Assembly: GCA_037305845.1 (NCBI GenBank)
Contig: CP147778.1
Span: 2,144,001 to 2,208,000 of the forward strand
DNA length: 64,000 nt
Source: Candidatus Freyarchaeum deiterrae
Lineage (GTDB): Archaea; Asgardarchaeota; Jordiarchaeia; Jordiarchaeales; Jordiarchaeaceae
Reading direction: 5' to 3'
Shown here: piece by piece, positions 13,925 through 31,825 of the stretch
Numbering within the stretch: the stretch's first letter is position 1
How the letters are laid out: each line of letters begins with the position of its first letter
Position numbers and translations under genes: made by a program
Notes under the pieces: generated by a model
Told to the model about the DNA's origin: nothing
The model's database searches: none
Seen by the model: only the letters and a program-made list of their open reading frames with translations

Positions 13925-14407
13925 GTGAAAAACATGCCAGCATTAAACGCTTTCCAAGTATACAAACTATTACCGCAAACAAACTGCGGCAGATGTGGAC
14001 TCGCAAACTGCATGGCCTTCGCAGTGGAATTACTAAGCGGCAAAAAGAAAGTCGAAAACTGCCTCCCACTAATAGAAGAATCCAAATACGCAAGCAAGCT
14101 AAAACAACTCCAAGAAATATTCACAACCACAGACGAAGTCCAAGCAACAGGACTAGTCTACCACGAAGACAAATGCACCGGCTGTGGCAACTGCGTGGCA
14201 ATATGTCCGATTGACGTTAACGCCTCTGAGCTAATTGCTGGGGGGAAAGGGTGTGAGGTTGATGGTGTAGTTTTTCGTGTGGAGGATGGGAAGACTAAAA
14301 TAGTTGACTTGAAGAAGTGTAGAAGGATGGGGTCTCAAAAGACTTGTCGTGTGTGTGAAATTTACTGTGGTACAGGTGCTATAGAGATTCGTGCAGTCGG
14401 AGGCTAA
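13925..14407 (+). CDS. Fe-S protein (putative Fe-S domain + 4Fe-4S ferredoxin), likely partner of FwdB
   Basis: LLPQTNCGRCGLANCMAFA, CTGCGNCVAICP and CRVCEIYC motifs. Confidence 0.8.
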   Translation: MKNMPALNAFQVYKLLPQTNCGRCGLANCMAFAVELLSGKKKVENCLPLIEESKYASKLKQLQEIFTTTDEVQATGLVYHEDKCTGCGNCVAICPIDVNASELIAGGKGCEVDGVVFRVEDGKTKIVDLKKCRRMGSQKTCRVCEIYCGTGAIEIRAVGG

Positions 14408-23127: not shown

Positions 23128-23361
23128 AAACCGAAGCAAGCTAAAATTATTTCCCTACAATTTTTATTTTTTTTAACTTCTCTCTAACCGAGAATTTTAT
23201 CGAACCTTTTTCTTCTACACAGGTTAAGATAAACCGTTCCAAACTTGTTTTTTTTATGTCTCGAAGAGCTGTTTAAGAAACTATTTAAGAATGCAAATTC
23301 CTTAAAATATATTTAAAAAATGAAGAGTTTTGAAAATAGAATAGTTGGAGGTTAAAGAGAG

Positions 23362-24960
23362 TTGGGAGAACAATGCATACTAACACATGATGTAGGAACA
23401 TCAGGAGACAAAGCAGCTCTGGTAGGAACATCGGGCAAAATACTCGGAACCGCAGAGAAAGACTACGACGTGGACTATCCACAACCGGGATGGGCTGAGC
23501 AGGACCCCAAACAGTACTGGGACGCAGTAGTAGAAACAACCAGAACACTCTTAAAAAAGTCAAAAATTAACCCCAAAGAAGTGATAGGAATAAGCCTAGA
23601 CGCCCAGATGATGGCAGCAATACCAGTAGACAAAGACTGCAACGCCCTCCGACCAGCAATGATCTGGCTCGACTCCCGAAGCCAAAAACAATCAGCAGAA
23701 TTCGAAAAAAAATTCGACCCCATAAGCCAACTGCTCGACATGGGAAACCTACCCATGACCACCGCAAAGGACGTCATACCCAAAATCTGGTGGATCCGAG
23801 ACAACGAGCCCAAAGTTTTTGAGAAAGCCTACAAATGGTGCGATGTTAAAGACTACGTAATCCGCAAACTCGTAGGAGAATTCTACACGGATTGGAGCAC
23901 CGCTCTCCTCTTCGGCCTTTTCCACATCCAAAACCATGTCTGGGTCGACCAAATAATCGAAGGAGTAGGCTTATCAAGAGATAAGCTCTGCGAAGTCACC
24001 AAAACCACGGATGTTATAGGAACCCTAACAAAAGAAGCAGCCCGCGAATTGGGACTCACCACAGAAACATCTGTAATCTGTGGCGCAGGTGACGCACCAG
24101 CCACTAATGTGGGTTCAGGCGCAATTAAAACCCTTGAAGGACACCTATACCTAGGCTCATCCGGATGGGTCTCCGTAACAATGGATAATTTTGCCGTTGA
24201 CCCCGAAACAGGCATCGCAACCATCTACTCCGGAGTCCCAGGAAAATTCATGCTCATCGGCGAAATGGAAAGCGTCGCCGCACCCTTCAAATGGTTCAGA
24301 GACAAGCTCGCCACAGCAGAGTGCCAAACAGCCACAGAACGAAACGTTGACCCCTACGACATCATAAACGAAGAAGCAGCGGCAGTAGGACCGGGCGCAA
24401 AGAAATTAATCTTTCTACCATGGATGCTCGGAGAAAGGGCACCAATACAGGACACCACAGTCAGAGGCGGCTTCATCAACCTAAGCTTCCACCACGGCCC
24501 ACCCGAGATCGCAAGATCCATACTGGAAGGAGTAGCCTACCACATAAGGTGGATAACAAAAAACATTCAGAAAATCCTCGACCGAGGCGTCCTAGACCCA
24601 AACCAACCCAAACCCGAAATCAAATCCCTAAACGCCTGCGGAGGAGGAGCAATAAGCCCCCTCTGGATGCAAATATTCGCCGACGTACTCGACAAGAGAA
24701 TACGCCTCATCAAAGAACCCCGCTCTGTAGCAGCACTTGGAATCGCAATAATATCAATGATCGGACTAAAAATATACCCGGACTTTGAAACTGCAGTAAA
24801 CAAAATAATAAAAACCGATAAAGACTACTACCCAAACGAAAACCTGAAACCAATATACGACGAAATGTACAATGTCTACGAAGGAATCTACCCAAAACTA
24901 AAAGACGTTTACCAAACCCTTAACAAGGGCGAAACAACCAAAAAAATAATAGAACCCTAA
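23362..24960 (+). CDS. FGGY-family carbohydrate kinase (xylulokinase-like)
   Basis: HDVGTSG, WAEQDP, IWLDSR, GAGD, YLGSSGW, LGERAP and CGGGA motifs. Confidence 0.9.
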   Translation: MGEQCILTHDVGTSGDKAALVGTSGKILGTAEKDYDVDYPQPGWAEQDPKQYWDAVVETTRTLLKKSKINPKEVIGISLDAQMMAAIPVDKDCNALRPAMIWLDSRSQKQSAEFEKKFDPISQLLDMGNLPMTTAKDVIPKIWWIRDNEPKVFEKAYKWCDVKDYVIRKLVGEFYTDWSTALLFGLFHIQNHVWVDQIIEGVGLSRDKLCEVTKTTDVIGTLTKEAARELGLTTETSVICGAGDAPATNVGSGAIKTLEGHLYLGSSGWVSVTMDNFAVDPETGIATIYSGVPGKFMLIGEMESVAAPFKWFRDKLATAECQTATERNVDPYDIINEEAAAVGPGAKKLIFLPWMLGERAPIQDTTVRGGFINLSFHHGPPEIARSILEGVAYHIRWITKNIQKILDRGVLDPNQPKPEIKSLNACGGGAISPLWMQIFADVLDKRIRLIKEPRSVAALGIAIISMIGLKIYPDFETAVNKIIKTDKDYYPNENLKPIYDEMYNVYEGIYPKLKDVYQTLNKGETTKKIIEP

Positions 24961-25069
24961 CCCCATTTCCCCCTTTTTAGATTCCCACTAACAGAGTTAA
25001 AGATGATAGTGTGTTATAAGGGGCTAATAGCAAATGTTTATATCTTGAGGAGCCTCTTGATTTTTTATC

Positions 25070-25945
25070 ATGTATCCTCTACCTTTTGATTATTTTTCGC
25101 CAAAAAGTCTCGGCGAAGCTTTGGAGCTTTACGGGGATGGCTCAGAGATTAAAATACTAGCAGGTGGGCAGAGCCTGATACCTTCTCTGAAATTGAGATT
25201 GGTTTCTTTGAAAGGCGTGGTGGATATAACGGGCATCAAAGAACTTGATTATGTACGTAAAGATGAAGACTTGCTTAGGATAGGGGCGTTAACAACTACT
25301 GCCATCTTGGAAAGTGATGAAATAATCGCATCTTCAATGCCCATTCTAAAGGAGGCTGCGGCTCAAATTGCTGACCCCTTAGTAAGGAATAGGGGCACAG
25401 TGGGCGGCAATTTGTGTTATCCTGATCCAGTGTATGATTTGCCAGCGGTGATGCTCGCCTTAAACGCGTCAATGGTTGCGGCTAGCAAAAAGGGAACCAG
25501 AAGGATTAGCGCTGATTCGTTCTTCATAGACTCATTTAAGACCGCATTGAAGCCTGGAGAGATTCTTACCGAAGTCGAGGTGCCGTTGCAGCTGGGCAGG
25601 TTTGGGGGCGCATATTGCAAAGTGAAGAAGGGCTCGGGAGGCTATTCTATTGCTGGCGTCGCGTCCTGTCTTTCAGTTGCGGATGATGATGGTGCCATTT
25701 CTGGATGCCGGATCGGATTGACTGCTGTTGGTCCTAAGGCTCTAAGAGCTGAGAAAGCAGAACAAGCTCTTCTGAAAAGAGTGCCAACGCCATCTACGTT
25801 GGATAAAGCTGCTGCATTGGCTGTAAAGGCTTCAAAGCCGTCTTCTGACTCCAATGCGTCAGAGGGTTATAGGCGCAAGGTGTTATACAAGCTTGTAAAA
25901 GACTCGGTAGAAGCAGCTTATGGCAGGGCAACCCAAGTGAGGTGA
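25070..25945 (+). CDS. Xanthine-dehydrogenase-family FAD subunit (CoxM/CutB-like)
   Basis: LAGGQSLIP, IGALTT and VRNRGTVGGN motifs. Confidence 0.9.
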   Translation: MYPLPFDYFSPKSLGEALELYGDGSEIKILAGGQSLIPSLKLRLVSLKGVVDITGIKELDYVRKDEDLLRIGALTTTAILESDEIIASSMPILKEAAAQIADPLVRNRGTVGGNLCYPDPVYDLPAVMLALNASMVAASKKGTRRISADSFFIDSFKTALKPGEILTEVEVPLQLGRFGGAYCKVKKGSGGYSIAGVASCLSVADDDGAISGCRIGLTAVGPKALRAEKAEQALLKRVPTPSTLDKAAALAVKASKPSSDSNASEGYRRKVLYKLVKDSVEAAYGRATQVR

Positions 25946-25951
25946 CGGGAA

Positions 25952-26425
25952 ATGAAGATAAATTTTAGGGTAAATGGAGAAGATGTTGAACTTGATGTGG
26001 AGCCGAGGAGGCTTCTTGTGAGTGTACTTAGGGATGAGCTTGGGCTCACTGGAACGCATATGGGTTGTGATACTACGAATTGCGGTGCATGTGCTGTCTT
26101 GGTGGATGGCAAGGTAATCAAGTCGTGTACGATGCTTGCGGTTCAGGCGGATGGCAAGGAGATACTTACCATAGAGGGTTTGGCGAAAGAGGGCGAGTTG
26201 CACCCTGTTCAGCGTGCTTTTTTGGAGAAGCATGGATTGCAGTGCGGTTTCTGCACGCCGGGAATGATAATGACGTCTTACTGGCTTCTGAGCCAAAACA
26301 AGGACCAAGATGAGGAGGAGATAAAGAGGCTGCTCTCGGGAAACCTGTGCAGGTGCACGGGTTACCATGGAATTGTAGAGTCTGTAAAATACGCTAGGAT
26401 GCTTATGGAGAAAGAGGGGAGGTAA
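25952..26425 (+). CDS. Xanthine-dehydrogenase-family 2Fe-2S subunit (CoxS/CutC-like)
   Basis: [18 protein letters not shown] and NLCRCTGY motifs. Confidence 0.93.
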
Positions 26426-26429
26426 TGCT

Positions 26430-28457
26430 ATGGGAGGACCTGAATTATTTGTTAGGGGCGCAGGGCGATATGTGGATGATATTAAGTTGCCACACATGCT
26501 GTATATGATGGTAGCTAGGAGCCCTTACGCGAGGGCAAGGGTACTTTCTGTGAAGGGCGGTATTAATAGGGATGATCTGAAGGCGCTTGTAGGTGGGTTT
26601 GGAGAGGGCGGGCGCTCAGATGTTGATCCTGTTTTGCTGCATCCTGTTTTTGCTCAGGATACTGTGAATTATGTCGGTCAGCCGGTTGCTGCGGTGTTTG
26701 CGGATGACCGTTACGTTGCTAGAGACAAGCTGGATGAAGTAGAAGTTGAATATGAGCAGTTGAAGCCTATTATGACTATAGACGACTCTCTTTCCAGCGA
26801 GCCTATTCATGCTGGTACTAAATCAAACATCATACGACAGTCATGGATGGGTGCCGATTTTGAGGATCCCAAGTCTCCTGTTGTACTGGAAGACGAGTTT
26901 ACGATAGGAAGGGTTGTGAATAACCCTCTCGAACCGAGAGGAATAATCGCGGATTATGATGGCTCCAGATTGACCGTTTACATCTCTACACAGGCGGTAT
27001 TCAGCATAAAGGCTGGGTTGTGCAGTGTCCTGAAGCTGGATAGTTCCAAGGTTAGGGTTTTGCAGGCAGACACAGGAGGCGCGTTCGGGTCGAAAAGTGC
27101 GCTATATCCTGAATACGTCATGGCAGCTTACGCGGCAATGAAATACAAGCAACCAGTGAAGTGGATTGAGAGCCGTAGCGAACACCTAGCCGCTAGTCAA
27201 CCAGGCAGAGGCATGCGTGGCAAGATGAAGATATTTGCCGACAAAGATGGAAAGGTTGACGCGTTGCGTGGCGAGGTAACCACAGACGCTGGTGCTTTTG
27301 GCGGGACTTCTGGAACCTCTTCGGCGTTTTTCGTGGCACTGCAGTTGACAGGACCTTATGGAATAGGAAAGGCGTATGTGCAAGCAACTTCCGTTATGAC
27401 GAACAAGCCTCCTCAAGGTCCCTACCGGGGCGCGGGGAGACCGGAGGCTGCTTTCTTCATGGAAAGAATGATGGACCTGCTTGCCGACGAGCTTGGAAAA
27501 GAAGCAGATGAAGTACGCCTCATTAACACCACCACAGAGAGCTTCAAGTCGCCACTTGGCCTACAGATTGAAGCGTCGCGTCCGTTCTATGAGAATGCTG
27601 TTGCCGAGCTAAAGTACAGGGAAAAATCAAAAAGCAGCAAGGCAGGGCTGGGCTTTTTCGTTCTGTTTCCCGCAGCCTTCATGGGGGAGACTGCTAGAAT
27701 AAAAATTAAGGACGGCAAGGTAGACGTTTGGCTCGGAGGAAACCAACACGGCCAGGCACACACTGCCTTTGTAAAGAGATTACTCAATGAAGAACTCGGA
27801 ATCCCCAACGACTTGGTAACGCTAAACAACGGAGACACTGACATGCTTGAGAAAGGCGTCGGAACCTGGGGAAGCAGATCCGCAATCGTGGGCGGGGCAG
27901 CCGTTGTCACCGCAGCCAGAAAATTGAAGGAGCAAGTAGAAAGCGAGCACGGAAGCTACACGACAGAAGCCCTGCTAGAAGGAGATTATAATGCAGAAGT
28001 TTTCTACGACTACAGAGCACAGTTAAACTCCTTCGGCGCAGCCCTCGCAACAGTAAGCATCAATAAGTATGGCATGGTCAACGTAAAAGAGTCTGCAGCT
28101 TGTTACGATGTGGGTAGGGCACTCACCCCCGGCGTAGTAGAAAGCCAGATAATCGGGGGAACTATTCAGGGAATCGGCCAAGTATTGTATGAGAGCGTTG
28201 TGCACGATTCGGAAGGCAGACTGCTGACAAAAAGCCTCTTCGACGCAGGCTTACCCGTAGCCGAAAACATGCCAGAATTCCAAGTCAAGATAATCGAAAA
28301 CCCCTCTTCACTACCTCATGGCGCTAAAGGCCTAGGCGAGGCCCCAACAATAGGCACACCGGTCGCCCTTGTGAGAGCCATCGAAAGAATATCCGGCAAA
28401 AGAATAACGCATACGCCAGTCAAACCTGAAGAATTAATTGAAGATTCAGACACATAA
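26430..28457 (+). CDS. Xanthine-dehydrogenase-family molybdopterin subunit (aldehyde oxidoreductase-like)
   Basis: GGAFGSK, PYRGAGRPEA, GTWGSRS and AKGLGE motifs; lacks the form I CODH AYxCSFR motif. Confidence 0.9.
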   Translation: MGGPELFVRGAGRYVDDIKLPHMLYMMVARSPYARARVLSVKGGINRDDLKALVGGFGEGGRSDVDPVLLHPVFAQDTVNYVGQPVAAVFADDRYVARDKLDEVEVEYEQLKPIMTIDDSLSSEPIHAGTKSNIIRQSWMGADFEDPKSPVVLEDEFTIGRVVNNPLEPRGIIADYDGSRLTVYISTQAVFSIKAGLCSVLKLDSSKVRVLQADTGGAFGSKSALYPEYVMAAYAAMKYKQPVKWIESRSEHLAASQPGRGMRGKMKIFADKDGKVDALRGEVTTDAGAFGGTSGTSSAFFVALQLTGPYGIGKAYVQATSVMTNKPPQGPYRGAGRPEAAFFMERMMDLLADELGKEADEVRLINTTTESFKSPLGLQIEASRPFYENAVAELKYREKSKSSKAGLGFFVLFPAAFMGETARIKIKDGKVDVWLGGNQHGQAHTAFVKRLLNEELGIPNDLVTLNNGDTDMLEKGVGTWGSRSAIVGGAAVVTAARKLKEQVESEHGSYTTEALLEGDYNAEVFYDYRAQLNSFGAALATVSINKYGMVNVKESAACYDVGRALTPGVVESQIIGGTIQGIGQVLYESVVHDSEGRLLTKSLFDAGLPVAENMPEFQVKIIENPSSLPHGAKGLGEAPTIGTPVALVRAIERISGKRITHTPVKPEELIEDSDT

Positions 28458-28609
28458 CTTACACTTTTTTAACAGCAAAGAGATCTAGGCACGCCAAGGC
28501 TGCAAGGCTAAACTAATTATTATTCAACTTTTGATTAGTTGTTTCAAATTATCGCTAGGACGGGGATGCTCAATTCACCTTTCTCCACGTTCAATGAAAA
28601 GCATCCTAG

Positions 28610-29413
28610 GTGAGTGGCATGATTACAGACTTGAAAATTTTGAATGAAGCGGCGCATCTATTGGAAAATGGAACTAGACTTGCGTTGTGCACGGTTATCG
28701 AGAAAAGGGGTTCAGGGCCTAGAGATGTTGGTGCGAAAATGATTGTTGGGGAAGACGAAAAGACTTATGGGACTATTGGGGGAGGTGCCCTTGAGAGAGC
28801 TTTGGTCAACGAGTGCATGAAAGCTTTGGAAGAAGGCAAATCAAGAAGAGTTACTTTCAACATGACGAGGGAAAAGAAAGAGGGAATGGTTGAAACGGGT
28901 CTGATATGCGGAGGCGAATTAACTGTGTTTGTTGACGTATTAGAACCAGATTTAAGGTTAATAATAGTGGGTTCTGGTCATGTAGCGTTGCCCTTAGCGA
29001 GACTAGCCGAAATTGTAGGATTTAAAACACTCATAGTTGATGATGACATCGACCTAGCCAACAAAGAGCGATTTCCAATGGCTGAAAGAATCATTACTGG
29101 CGATTTTGCCAAAATATTGAATGAGCTTGATGTAGGCTCCAACGACTCTGTCGTCATTGCTCACGGCGAACCTGAACATGATTACAAGGCATTAGAGAAG
29201 ATGATTGAAAAAAAACCCGCCTACATTGGACTGCTTGGAAGCCGGACGAAAGTTGCGATACTCGTTCAGAGGCTTCGAAAGCAAGGAATCAGCGAGGCAC
29301 AATTGAAGATATTACACGCACCCTTAGGCTTGGACATTGGGGCTCAGACCCCTGAAGAAATCGGAATAAGCGTACTCGCCGAGATTATCCAGAGCAAAAG
29401 AAAAAGAACATGA
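28610..29413 (+). CDS. xdhC: XdhC/CoxI Moco-insertion chaperone
   Basis: GSGPR..GAKM, GTIGGG..E, CGG, YIGLLGS and GAQTPEEI motifs. Confidence 0.9.
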   Translation: MSGMITDLKILNEAAHLLENGTRLALCTVIEKRGSGPRDVGAKMIVGEDEKTYGTIGGGALERALVNECMKALEEGKSRRVTFNMTREKKEGMVETGLICGGELTVFVDVLEPDLRLIIVGSGHVALPLARLAEIVGFKTLIVDDDIDLANKERFPMAERIITGDFAKILNELDVGSNDSVVIAHGEPEHDYKALEKMIEKKPAYIGLLGSRTKVAILVQRLRKQGISEAQLKILHAPLGLDIGAQTPEEIGISVLAEIIQSKRKRT

Positions 29414-29450
29414 ACATAGCACGAATCACTTACTTGAGTATTTACGGTTC

Positions 29451-30068
29451 TCAAATGCCATAGCTACCAGTTTTTATTAGACTGCGAGCGCGAGCCAAGT
29501 CTTCAGGAGTGTCTATGTCCATAATGGACCACTCCGGTGCCTCGATTGTGAACAGTTTGTCAGCATGCCTATTAACAACGTCTCGTATTGTCTCGGGGTT
29601 TTTCAAAGCTAGTATTTCGCCGAAAAGCTCCTTATGAAAGAGCAGCGGATGACCTTTCTTCCCCTTATGTATTGGACTCACAATCCATGCTTTGTCTACA
29701 TTGTTCTCCATCTGTTCAATCATAACGTTCAAAAAGTTCTTGTCAAGAATAGGTTCGTCTCCAAGAACCAAAAATGCAGCGTCAACATGACGCATTAGTC
29801 GCAGTCCCTTTTGAAAAGATGAAATCATCCCCTGTTCATAGTCATCATTTATAACCGTCTTAATATCTTCTAACCATGGCTTTATGGCTTCGATTATCTG
29901 CTGAGGTTCGTGTCCTAACACAATTACTTTTTCATCTGCGTCCGTAGCTGCTATTGCATCCAAAACATTCCCTATCAAAGTATCATCATTCAGACGCAGC
30001 AGGAGCTTGTTTTGCCCCATCCTTTCGGATTTACCGGCTGCTAGAACAATTGCTGCGGTAATTATCAT
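29451..30068 (-). CDS. mocA: Molybdenum cofactor cytidylyltransferase-like nucleotidyltransferase
   Basis: LAAGKSERMGQNKLL, LGDEP, GHPLLF and DIDTPED motifs; adjacent to the XDH cassette. Confidence 0.85.
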   Translation of the reverse strand: MIITAAIVLAAGKSERMGQNKLLLRLNDDTLIGNVLDAIAATDADEKVIVLGHEPQQIIEAIKPWLEDIKTVINDDYEQGMISSFQKGLRLMRHVDAAFLVLGDEPILDKNFLNVMIEQMENNVDKAWIVSPIHKGKKGHPLLFHKELFGEILALKNPETIRDVVNRHADKLFTIEAPEWSIMDIDTPEDLARARSLIKTGSYGI

Positions 30069-30253
30069 CAACACCTCCCATGCCGAAAATAGCGCCATCC
30101 TCTCTGGGGTTGCACCAAACGTCGTGACTATTGCTTCCTAGTTGATTGCACCAAAATATAACCATATTCAAGTATATAACTATGCTCAACGAAAATCGCG
30201 GCAAAAAAATAAAAACAAAAAAGAGAAGGGGAAAGCCCCGAAACTAAATTCCT

Positions 30254-31647
30254 TCACACTATTTTACTCGTCTTCCAAGTGCCCAAGGCACGACCGAGCT
30301 CCTTGTGATCCTCAGCATACTTCTCCAACGGTATACCCTGCACAGAAGCGTCGATAGCCTGACGAAAAGAAGTAGCACCAGCACGAGGACCATCAGGATG
30401 CGCATGAATAGCGCCACCAACACCTACTATGAAATCCTTACCGAGATCCGCCATAATCTGAGGAACAATCTGAACAATGACACCACCAGCAGGCATAGGC
30501 AAAGTAGGCTTCAAATGATAGAACGGAAACGTCAACTCACGCCAAACCTGCAGATAAGTCTCCTTCATGAAAGGAGCTTTTCTGGAGGCTCGGGAACTAC
30601 TTGCACTCAATGTGCGAAATCAGTCTCCCGAATTCCTATTCCAAAGGGCGCTGGGTTAAAATTTTAACAGGGAAGTCCTGTTAAATATACTTCCATGTCA
30701 GCGCCGGCTAGTCTGCAGAATTTTCCTAGTATGAGTCTGGCGTCTACTCCGTATTCTGGTGATGCGTAGTGTACTGCTGCATAGTCTGTGTGTGCTAAAA
30801 CTGGTACTTTTATGCTGGGGTCTTCTGCTAGGTCTCTGAATGTTTCGTATCCTGTTGTGATGATGTTGACCATTAGTGCGTTTGCTCCTAGGTCTATGGC
30901 TTTTTCTGCTAGTTCTAGTGTTTTTTTGGGTCGGTCGGTTATGTTGACTGTGTAGAGTGTTTTTTCTCCTTTTTCTTCGTCTGCTTTGTCGATTGCTTCC
31001 ATGAATTTTACTACCCGGTCTTCTACTCGGTTTAGTTCCATGTCTGCTAGTAGTTCATCGTCTTTGATGAAGTCTACTCCGCCTGCTGCGACTTCGTATG
31101 CTAGGTCTGCTCCTATTTCGCAGGGTGAGTAGACGCAGGGTTTTATCATGTTGTTTAGTATGGGTCGGTCTTTTACTCCCAGTATCTCTCTTACTCCTTT
31201 TATTCCGAATTTTGGTCCTTTGAATCCGCTTACCCATTTTTTGGGGAATTGGAGGTCCAGTAGTTTTATTTTTCCGGCAGCGGAGAGGTTTCCGACTACT
31301 GTGCTCAGGAGTACGGGTAGGTTGGGGTAGCCGAGGTTGGTTATGGGGTACGCGATTTTTATTATCCAGTGTCTTTCTTCTGTTTTTGGTAGCTGCCATT
31401 GGTGTGGTGGGATTTCGAATACTGCTGTTACTCGGGCTGCGTGCAGTCTTCTGACTTCGGGTGTTTCTTTGGGTACGGGTGTCCAGGTTCCGGTGCTTTG
31501 TTCTAGGGCTGCTGCTACGCCCATTGTGTATCCGTCTAGCCATGAGGGCTGGGTTGTGTAGTATGTGGCTATTATGTTTTCTTCGGGGTCTATGCCTTCG
31601 GGTAGTGCTTCCATTGATGTTAATAATTCATAATCTTTTTCGCCCAA
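30254..31647 (-). CDS. RuBisCO-like protein (form IV), spliced from 3 exons: 31647-30687, 30656-30639, 30579-30254
   Basis: EQSTGTW, GPKFGI.G.R, MIKP, GGVDFIKDDELL and HAHPDG..AGA motifs. Removing the 30- and 59-nt inserts gives a continuous 434-aa ORF reading GADMEVYPAPFGKAPF. TTG start follows GGAGG. Confidence 0.88.
30580..30638 (-). other. Putative BHB mRNA intron (59 nt), RLP intron 2
   Basis: Central helix UUGG/CCAG, bulges AAU and AAA, long internal stem. Canonical cuts give GGA A|AA GCU (G-K-A). Confidence 0.85.
30657..30686 (-). other. Putative BHB mRNA intron (30 nt), RLP intron 1
   Basis: Central helix AAGU/AUUU, bulges AUA and UAA, perfect 9-bp inner stem, exon-exon stem GG/CC plus GGCGCUG/CAGCGCC. 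Cuts give GUA U|AC CCA (V-Y-P). Confidence 0.87.
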
Positions 31648-31825
31648 CTTTTTTCCTCCATTTTTAATCAAGTTTATTCGTGGTTGTAGAACTTTTAAAG
31701 TTTTGTTAAGCTCATTTTGTTGTGTGGTTTTGGTTTTCGAGGATTTTAGATAGTTTTTTAAAGGAATTTCGCGTTCTATCTATGAACAGATTCTTGCCGC
31801 TTGTGGTGGGTTAAGAACAGGAGGT

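What the first reader, a model, noticed from the sequence alone, without database searches (positions are those of the whole stretch)
30580..30638. RLP intron 2 (59 nt) splits the loop-6 lysine codon
Seen on the minus strand: CU-UUGG-AA^U-AGG...UCGGGA...UCCCGA-G-CCU-CCAG-AA^A-AG. It has a 4-bp central helix, two 3-nt bulges, a long internal stem and a short 2-bp outer stem. Excision fixes the frameshift and yields P-F-G-K-A-P, where K aligns by position with RuBisCO loop-6 Lys334.
Basis: partly seen in the sequence, partly recalled or inferred. Interest (0 to 1): 0.85.

Follow-up and report, generated by a model that had tools for sequence, protein, structure and literature searches.

The report
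tRNA-type intron splits RuBisCO-like gene
A 59-base insert in the active-site lysine codon of a RuBisCO-like gene in an Asgard archaeon has the shape that the tRNA-splicing enzyme cuts, so the message is very probably spliced by proteins; this is known for only one archaeal protein gene family in the literature searched.

Summary
On the minus strand, 30580-30638 is a 59-nt insertion inside the Lys codon of P-F-G-K-A-P in a form IV RuBisCO-like gene (31647..30254). Uninterrupted orthologs read PAPYGKAP at this point, and the closest relatives lack the insert.

The flanks form a strict hBHBh' motif with a 4-bp helix and two 3-nt bulges. Cutting after the second nucleotide of each bulge removes exactly these 59 nt and gives a 434-aa product colinear with the orthologs. 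Only 0.36% of shuffled inserts do this.

A second strict BHB insert (30657-30686, 30 nt) lies 18 nt upstream. It is kept in relatives through compensatory changes. The genome is the published complete Freyarchaeia genome, in which 92-95% of tRNA genes carry introns. It encodes two EndA paralogs and RtcB.

Exon 3 is still under purifying selection. Lineage-specific changes, including Tyr to Phe, complete the central helix.

No RNA read covers the junction, so splicing itself is inferred.

This scan had already noted similar mRNA introns elsewhere in the same genome, and I re-derived the one in rtcB. The case is a new member of a known kind (cbf5-type mRNA introns).

Separately, the insert lies at a sharp, unexplained flip in third-codon-position composition.

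The parts
30687..31647 (-). Exon 1 of the RuBisCO-like (form IV) gene. The start is TTG at 31647-31645, preceded by GGAGG at 31659-31655. The exon ends ...GAA GUA U.
   Evidence: ORF and Pfam RuBisCO_large_N plus catalytic domain positions 1-171. The start is colinear with orthologs that begin MGEKDYELL.
30657..30686 (-). Intron 1, 30 nt, with an in-frame UAA. Strict hBHBh': h GG/CC, H AAGU/AUUU, bulges AU^A and UA^A, h' 9 bp. Excision gives GUAU|ACCC = V-Y-P.
   Evidence: 416 of 200,000 shuffles. The insert is present at the same site in L004, L006 and L014/L024. Across these, 92% of cells are paired and 4 pairs change on both sides.
30639..30656 (-). Exon 2, an 18-nt micro-exon (A CCC AGC GCC CUU UGG AA). 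It carries the 3' exon half of BHB 1 and the 5' exon half of BHB 2.
   Evidence: The MFE fold of 161 nt shows both hairpins side by side.
30580..30638 (-). Intron 2, the finding: 59 nt, splitting the Lys codon as A|AA. It has no ORF and no other copy in the genome.
   Evidence: It is absent from all orthologs examined. There is no other copy in the genome or in two public collections.
30635..30646 (-). 5' half of the BHB of intron 2: h CU (30646-30645), H UUGG (30644-30641), bulge AA^U (30640-30638, cut between 30639 and 30638), h' AGG (30637-30635).
   Evidence: Lineage-specific changes TAT>TTT, GGG>GGA and AAG>AAA fall here.
30577..30588 (-). 3' half of the BHB of intron 2: h' CCU (30588-30586), H CCAG (30585-30582), bulge AA^A (30581-30579, cut between 30580 and 30579), h AG (30578-30577).
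30254..30579 (-). Exon 3 (AA GCU CCU ... UGA), the C-terminal 108 codons. It matches Pfam catalytic domain positions 215-299.
   Evidence: dN/dS is 0.11 against the closest relative.

Best explanation
The 59 nt are a bulge-helix-bulge (BHB, tRNA-type) intron in the mRNA of a form IV RuBisCO-like protein gene.

In the transcript, the last bases of exon 2 and the first bases of exon 3 pair with each other and with the ends of the insert. This forms a 4-bp helix flanked by two 3-nt bulges on opposite strands. The archaeal splicing endonuclease is inferred to cut after the second nucleotide of each bulge. Here it is probably an (alpha-beta)2 enzyme made from the two EndA paralogs. RtcB is inferred to join the exons, and the intron is released, probably as a circle.

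Together with removal of the 30-nt intron 18 nt upstream, this yields a 434-aa protein with the loop-6 lysine restored.

Shown: the insertion, its geometry, the restored colinear frame, the enzyme genes, and selection on exon 3 and on the exon half of the helix.

Inferred: that cutting and ligation happen in the cell.

The intron was gained recently, after the split from the 93%-identical relative. It most likely has no function of its own beyond being tolerated. It does make RLP synthesis depend on EndA and RtcB.
For: (1) Five uninterrupted orthologs in the same genus and five in the sister family read EVYPAPYGKAP. The window has 59 extra nt inside the Lys codon.

(2) A strict hBHBh' motif has cut sites that remove exactly the extra nt. 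Only 0.36% of shuffled inserts do so.

(3) The spliced CDS is 1305 nt / 434 aa, the same length as the orthologs.

(4) The same gene has a second strict BHB insert whose helices are kept in four sequence variants by compensatory changes. The covariation score is 0.449 against 0.218 for shuffles, with 0 of 500 shuffles as high.

(5) Exon 3 has dN/dS 0.11 against the closest relative. On the window's own branch it has 5 synonymous and 3 conservative changes, with no stop or frameshift.

(6) Three adjacent lineage-specific codon changes flank the insert. TAT>TTT changes an otherwise invariant Tyr to Phe and turns an A.G mismatch into the fourth pair of the central helix.

(7) Two EndA paralogs, each with N-terminal and catalytic domains, and RtcB are encoded.

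(8) The genome is the published Freyarchaeia genome, in which 92-95% of tRNA genes carry introns, often at non-canonical positions (PMC11291895).

(9) I re-derived a 29-nt BHB-like insert in rtcB whose excision restores PDAHQGYGFPIGGV.

(10) A DNA run from another study carries both inserts with 0 differences, so this is not an assembly error.
Against: No RNA evidence exists. The BHB register is 4.5 kcal/mol less stable than the MFE register, which has a 6-bp helix. The outer helix has only 2 bp, and h' has 3 bp before an internal loop. Strict motifs arise by chance: three others lie in the same 260 nt. Intron 2 has no sequence variants, so it has no covariation of its own. Selection since the gain cannot be separated cleanly from selection before it.
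Confidence: 0.85

Rival explanations
1. Recent pseudogene: a 59-nt hairpin-forming insertion broke the frame and is never removed. The BHB-like shape is coincidence.
For: The insertion shifts the frame, and the unspliced reading stops 13 codons later. The insert is unique to this lineage. Strict BHB motifs occur by chance at appreciable density. A form III paralog exists.
Against: The motif's cut sites coincide with the insertion boundaries (0.36% of shuffles). Exon 3 shows no stops or frameshifts, has dN/dS 0.11, and carries only conservative changes on this branch. The Tyr>Phe change completes the helix. The upstream insert in the same gene is conserved with covariation. The allele is identical in a second study.
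Confidence: 0.07
2. Spliced, but in the minimum-energy register, with both cuts one base further 3'. This would give P-F-G-I-A-P, or a mixture of products, rather than Lys.
For: The MFE fold places the 5' bulge at AUA and a 3-nt AAA loop one position later. It is 4.5 kcal/mol more stable than the BHB register. Removal of 59 nt in that register also keeps the frame.
Against: That register has a 6-bp helix between the bulges, not the 4 bp that defines the motif (definition as given in bioRxiv 10.64898/2026.10.13.758758). Its 3' site is an asymmetric internal loop. Lys is invariant at this position in all orthologs and aligns with Lys334.
Confidence: 0.03
3. Split gene: the N-terminal part (about 330 aa) and a C-terminal part started at the internal Met of F-M-K-E-T-Y are made as two polypeptides that associate.
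For: An ATG lies 4 codons into exon 3. Gene callers annotate relatives that carry intron 1 as two ORFs.
Against: This would delete the loop-6 lysine and flanking residues, which are invariant in orthologs. The Met is equally present in uninterrupted orthologs. It does not explain the BHB geometry or the covariation.
Confidence: 0.03
4. Translational bypass or frameshifting carries the ribosome across the 59 nt (T4 gene 60-like hop).
For: A stable hairpin follows a GGA codon.
Against: The codon after the GGA is AUA, not a stop. The triplet before AAA GCU is AGA, so it does not match the take-off GGA. This is compared with the gene 60 rules from my own knowledge. Intron 1 would need a separate mechanism.
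Confidence: 0.02

Closest known systems
BHB intron in cbf5 pre-mRNA of Crenarchaeota (Aeropyrum, Sulfolobales, Desulfurococcales; Yokobori et al. 2009, PMC2738675)
   Same: A short ORF-less insert in a protein-coding gene. It is bounded by a bulge-helix-bulge motif and removed by the tRNA splicing endonuclease in hosts with a two-subunit EndA. Gain and loss are lineage-specific.
   Different: A different phylum (Asgard, Freyarchaeia) and a different gene, a metabolic RuBisCO-like protein rather than an RNA-modification enzyme. There are two introns 18 nt apart in one gene. Splicing here is not experimentally shown. That paper states that no archaeal pre-mRNA splicing was confirmed for genes other than cbf5.
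Non-canonical tRNA introns of Freyarchaeia and Atabeyarchaeia (Valentin-Alvarado et al. 2024, PMC11291895; bioRxiv 10.64898/2026.10.13.758758)
   Same: The same genome and the same presumed enzymes and motif. Those introns also sit at many positions, with several per gene, and show repeated independent gains.
   Different: Those are in tRNA genes. Neither paper's passages retrieved here report introns in protein-coding genes.
Other mRNA mini-introns noted by this scan in the same genome (rtcB, gatE, cbf5, alba, mvhD, hdrC, kae1, ychF and others)
   Same: The same geometry and cut rule. The AA^N bulges and an intron ending in GAA are shared with several of them. I re-derived the rtcB case.
   Different: At 59 nt, this one is longer than most of those noted (mostly 18-39 nt, though 56 and 191 nt were also noted). 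It has a long imperfect inner stem. It is the youngest that can be dated: it is absent from a 93%-identical ortholog. It shares a gene with an older intron.
IRE1/RtcB unconventional splicing of HAC1/XBP1 mRNA in eukaryotes (my own knowledge)
   Same: A protein endonuclease cuts two loops in an mRNA. RtcB-type ligation joins the exons, and removal of a short intron changes the reading frame.
   Different: The endonuclease family and recognition motif differ. That system is a regulated stress switch, and nothing here shows regulation.

Membership tests
Archaeal BHB (tRNA-type) intron | [quoted passage not shown] | tested here: met
   H is UUGG/CCAG (4/4, one G.U pair) and the bulges are AAU and AAA. 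This is not the MFE register; it lies 4.5 kcal/mol above it.
Archaeal BHB (tRNA-type) intron | Flanking helices h (exon-exon) and h' (intron-intron) | tested here: met
   h has 2 bp (CU/AG). h' has 3 bp (AGG/CCU), followed by a 6-bp stem after a small internal loop. Both are short.
Archaeal BHB (tRNA-type) intron | Cuts after the 2nd nt of each bulge give a functional, colinear product | tested here: met
   Exactly the 59 nt that are extra relative to ten uninterrupted orthologs are removed. The product is 434 aa with P-F-G-K-A-P. 714 of 200,000 shuffles do the same.
Archaeal BHB (tRNA-type) intron | Host encodes the splicing endonuclease and an RtcB-type ligase | tested here: met
   Two EndA paralogs of 211 and 198 aa, each with N-terminal and catalytic domains, plus RtcB.
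Archaeal BHB (tRNA-type) intron | Removed at the RNA level (spliced junction or circular intron observed) | not testable with these tools
   The only RNA run that holds the gene covers 31001-31466 and not the junction.
Archaeal BHB (tRNA-type) intron | Helices kept by compensatory change among variants | tested here: inconclusive
   Intron 2 has no variants. One exon change (A>U, Tyr>Phe) completes H. Intron 1 in the same gene shows clear covariation.
RuBisCO form IV (RuBisCO-like protein) | RuBisCO large-subunit N-terminal and catalytic domains | tested here: met
   Pfam PF02788 and PF00016 match the two ORFs. The best solved relatives are DK-MTP-1-P enolases (2OEK, E 2.5e-81).
RuBisCO form IV (RuBisCO-like protein) | Substitutions at carboxylase active-site residues | tested here: met
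   Tested against the own-genome form III paralog: K177>C, R295>T, H327>V, S379>A. K175, K201, D203, E204, H294 and K334 are kept.
Repeated mobile element (MITE/IS) | Multiple copies in the genome | tested here: not met
   There is no second copy in the 3.58-Mb genome. Only chance-level 12-14-mers are shared. No match was found in two public collections.
T4 gene 60-type translational bypass | Matching take-off and landing codons, with a stop after take-off | tested here: not met
   The take-off GGA is followed by AUA. The triplet before AAA GCU is AGA.

The most novel reading that the evidence does not exclude
The two RLP introns are not at a random place. They lie within about 50-110 nt of one of the genome's sharp local strand-asymmetry centres. 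There, third codon positions flip from 91% A/C to 84% G/T.

Such flips are 3- to 17-fold more frequent in one polarity than in the other. Of 12 mRNA intron sites, 3 lie within 200 nt of one of 191 such flips, where 2% per site is expected. The positions of the other 11 sites come from earlier notes of this scan; I re-derived only the rtcB one.

The reading is that intron gain or retention is tied to these centres. One route is that an A/C-rich upstream exon and a G/U-rich downstream exon readily supply the exon halves of a BHB. The other is that the unknown DNA process that makes the flip also inserts short hairpin DNA.
Probability: 0.15. Interest if true: 0.8.

Novelty: new member of a known kind. 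Interest (0 to 1): 0.6.

Why it matters
[quoted passage not shown] A RuBisCO-like gene with two of them, in the archaeal group closest to eukaryotes, shows that ordinary metabolic genes can be interrupted. It also adds to evidence that this genome carries many such introns.

Practical consequence: gene callers split or truncate such genes. The window gene and its relatives are annotated as 324-350-aa fragments plus an 80-99-aa piece. Metabolic reconstructions of Asgard genomes may therefore miss intact enzymes.

Evolutionary value: this gene offers natural alleles with zero, one and two introns within one genus. Exon changes also appear to adapt to the intron. That makes it a good system for dating and testing how BHB introns are gained.

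Tried and rejected
RNA evidence: one metatranscriptome run (X7) holds 24% of the gene's words, but its contigs cover only 31001-31466. A second run labelled as a metatranscriptome (probably DNA) covers 30252-30469. Neither reaches the junctions, so there is no verdict on splicing.

Genome-wide census: strict BHB plus an ORF-joining filter gave 918 candidates, against 802 for a parallel-pairing control. The filter does not discriminate, and it misses this two-intron gene by design. A first version of the script timed out.

Rfam (gathering threshold) and ARAGORN found nothing in the window. I did not check by a dedicated search whether the intron holds a C/D-box sRNA; Rfam gave no hit.

Origin of intron 2: there is no other copy in the genome. 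There is no local direct or inverted duplication of 9 nt or more. No exact 21-22-mers were found in metagenome contigs or genome contigs. The weak 79% matches at 2,677,300 and 2,680,649 are repeat-plus-spacer units of CRISPR-like arrays and are chance.

Foreign donor for exon 3, as an explanation of its opposite codon bias: among 300 Asgard genomes, the best non-genus matches are still the sister family at 57-60%. The N- and C-part rankings of 120 homologs point to no donor.

Replication origin or terminus as the cause of the flip: the cumulative skew extremes lie at about 0 and 1.66 Mb, not at 2.17 Mb.

A shared 11-mer at flip centres (TGAGGA[AC]TTCA, a lead from earlier notes): k-mer enrichment at 191 refined flips shows only A/T-rich words. 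The AGGAATTC and AGGACTTC words in the two introns are therefore treated as coincidence.

My first coordinates for intron 1 were wrong and were corrected.

Full report
**What is there**

The window is G000:C1:2,144,001-2,208,000 of a closed 3,576,204-bp genome. That size, and the wetland source of the DNA runs, identify it as the complete Freyarchaeia genome of Valentin-Alvarado et al. 2024 (PMC11291895).

On the minus strand, a RuBisCO large-subunit homolog is broken into two ORFs. The first, 30664-31671, covers the Pfam N-terminal domain and catalytic-domain positions 1-171. The second, 30254-30610, covers catalytic positions 215-299.

The nearest database proteins are from Freyarchaeota and Jordarchaeales. 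Some are 434-441 aa and uninterrupted. Others are 324-350-aa fragments.

**Comparison with orthologs**

The uninterrupted orthologs are P0002/L001/L023, L021, L022 and P0005/L015 in the same genus, and five genomes of the sister family. They read ...RLAGAD(I/M)(E/V)VYPAPYGKAPF... as one frame.

The window reads EVY-[30 nt]-PAPFG-K-[59 nt inside the Lys codon]-APFMKETY. Three other lineages carry an insert at the first site (30 or 33 nt) but nothing at the second: L004 (93% identical protein), L006, and L014/L024.

So the 59-nt insert is specific to the window's lineage and is younger than the first insert. A DNA contig from a different study carries both inserts with no differences, so it is not an assembly artefact.

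**Geometry**

I scanned 260 nt exhaustively for the strict hBHBh' layout: a 4/4-paired central helix, two 3-nt bulges, outer helix of at least 2 bp and inner helix of at least 3 bp. The elements are h CU/AG, H UUGG/CCAG, bulges AA^U and AA^A, and h' AGG/CCU followed by UCGGGA/UCCCGA.

It also returns 30657-30686 (30 nt), with h GG/CC, H AAGU/AUUU, bulges AU^A and UA^A, and a 9-bp h'.

Cutting after the second nucleotide of each bulge removes both inserts. The result is a 1305-nt, 434-aa CDS starting at the TTG at 31647, the same length as the orthologs.

Strict motifs are not rare. Three further chance motifs lie in the same 260 nt. The relevant test is therefore coincidence with the ortholog-defined boundaries. 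With exons fixed and insert letters shuffled, 714 of 200,000 shuffles (intron 2) and 416 of 200,000 (intron 1) give a strict BHB with the same product.

Free-energy folding gives a well-folded hairpin (z = -2.6 for 81 nt and -5.0 for 161 nt with both inserts). It prefers a neighbouring register with a 6-bp helix. The BHB register costs 4.5 kcal/mol at 37 C. That is a weakness, although enzyme binding could select the register.

**Selection**

Between the window and its closest relative L004, dN/dS is 0.14 for exons 1+2 and 0.11 for exon 3.

I polarised the changes with four outgroups. Exon 3 on the window's branch has 5 synonymous and 3 conservative replacements (L>I, I>L, A>S), with no stop or frameshift.

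Three adjacent codons flanking the insert changed on this branch: TAT>TTT (Tyr>Phe), GGG>GGA and AAG>AAA. Tyr is invariant in all other orthologs. The A>U change converts an A.G mismatch into the U.G pair that completes the 4-bp helix.

For intron 1, the four sequence variants keep H and h' with 92% of cells paired. Four pairs change on both sides. The covariation score is 0.449, against 0.218 for shuffles, and 0 of 500 shuffles reach it. Slid controls give 34-50% paired. In L004 and L006 the 3' bulge is 3 nt longer, and H is 3/4 in all three relatives. Those versions are relaxed motifs.

**Machinery and context**

The genome encodes two EndA paralogs of 211 and 198 aa, each with N-terminal and catalytic domains. 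This is consistent with the two-subunit enzyme that accepts relaxed motifs (PMC5829648 abstract). It also encodes RtcB.

The source paper reports introns in 92-95% of tRNA genes, often at non-canonical positions and several per gene. The passages I retrieved do not mention mRNA introns.

Earlier notes of this scan list many BHB inserts in protein genes of this genome. I checked one myself. In rtcB, removing 1,452,796-1,452,824 (29 nt, H 3/4) joins ...SVTLPD to AHQGYGFPIGGV.

**The protein**

Aligned with the same genome's form III RuBisCO paralog, the restored Lys matches Lys334 (GTAAGK against APFGK). K175, K201, D203, E204 and H294 are kept, but K177>C, R295>T, H327>V and S379>A. The best solved relatives are DK-MTP-1-P enolases.

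**Verdict on mechanism**

The best explanation is a BHB intron removed from the mRNA by EndA and RtcB (confidence 0.85). Cutting and joining are inferred, not shown. The single RNA run that holds the gene does not reach the junction.

The rivals are a very recent pseudogene, splicing in the +1 register (Ile instead of Lys), a split gene, and translational bypass. Each fails to explain at least two of these: the boundary coincidence, the Tyr>Phe change, the covariation of the neighbouring intron, and the intact exon 3.

**Known or new**

BHB introns in archaeal mRNAs are established for cbf5 in Crenarchaeota. As of that work, no other gene was confirmed (PMC2738675). My literature searches found no report of mRNA BHB introns in Asgard archaea.

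This is a new member of a known kind, and this scan had already found others in the same genome. Its particular value is that alleles with zero, one and two introns exist within one genus.

**An unexplained coincidence**

Third codon positions of this gene are 91% A/C up to codon 327 and 16% A/C after it. The change point lies at codons 315-327 in all eight genus-level orthologs, whether or not they carry introns. It is absent in the sister family. The flip is therefore older than the introns and not caused by them.

The flip is not at the replication origin or terminus. Exon 3 has no closer foreign donor.

The phenomenon is genome-wide:
- 83 of 2070 long ORFs contain both 30-codon windows with at least 85% A/C and windows with at most 20% A/C at third positions.
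- Coding-strand A/C content correlates at +0.18 for same-strand neighbours and -0.18 for opposite-strand neighbours. This points to a DNA-strand property rather than codon selection.
- Sharp flips of the polarity 'A/C-rich then G/T-rich, 5' to 3'' outnumber the opposite polarity 190:57, 56:15, 17:1 and 7:0 at rising thresholds.

The RLP site is one of the 56 at threshold 0.5. No sequence motif marks the centres.

Of 12 mRNA-intron sites, 3 lie within 200 nt of one of 191 flips, where 2.1% per site is expected. This rests on unverified positions for two of the three. I report it as a lead only.

Noticed in passing
window 30657-30686 (-): Intron 1 of the same RLP gene: 30 nt, with an in-frame UAA and a strict BHB. 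It is shared with three related lineages, which carry 30-33-nt variants. The stem is kept by compensatory changes. It leaves an 18-nt micro-exon (30639-30656).
   Followed up: yes
window about 30600-30720, extending to about 30000 and 34200: A sharp flip of third-codon-position composition inside the RLP gene: 91% A/C before codon 327 and 16% after. It is present in intron-less orthologs of the genus and absent in the sister family. The + strand stays G/T-rich across RLP exon 1 (-), SCP2 (+), cysS (-) and the start of DUF2070 (+), so it follows the DNA strand and not the gene direction.
   Followed up: partly
whole genome G000; in the window also near 14179, 24973 and 60380: Local strand-asymmetry flips are strongly polar. 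There are 190 against 57 at threshold 0.4 and 17 against 1 at 0.6 for A/C-to-G/T against the reverse. They are not at the replication origin or terminus, and no shared motif was found. The cause is unknown.
   Followed up: partly
window 23356-30137: In relatives the RLP gene lies within a few hundred to about 2,900 nt of an FGGY-family kinase and a class III aminotransferase. In the window, about 5.3 kb sits between RLP and the FGGY kinase. It holds a xanthine-dehydrogenase-type cluster (FAD, 2Fe-2S and MoCo subunits, XdhC, MobA-like). The FGGY kinase shares the extreme A/C third-position bias.
   Followed up: partly
G000:C1:343853-344740 (+), locus L035: A second RuBisCO homolog (43% identical, 444-aa frame) has the full form III active-site set: KPK, KDDE, HxHR, GK, SGG.
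   Followed up: partly
G000:C1 about 2,677,300 and 2,680,650 (loci L009, L010): Two CRISPR-like arrays have a 37-nt repeat (CTTGCAAAAGTAGTTCCTCAGTAACGAGGATTGAAAG). They appear to share one nearly identical spacer.
   Followed up: no
G000:C1:1452796-1452824 (-): rtcB is interrupted by a 29-nt BHB-like insert (central helix 3/4). Its removal restores PDAHQGYGFPIGGV, so the ligase message itself seems to need splicing.
   Followed up: partly
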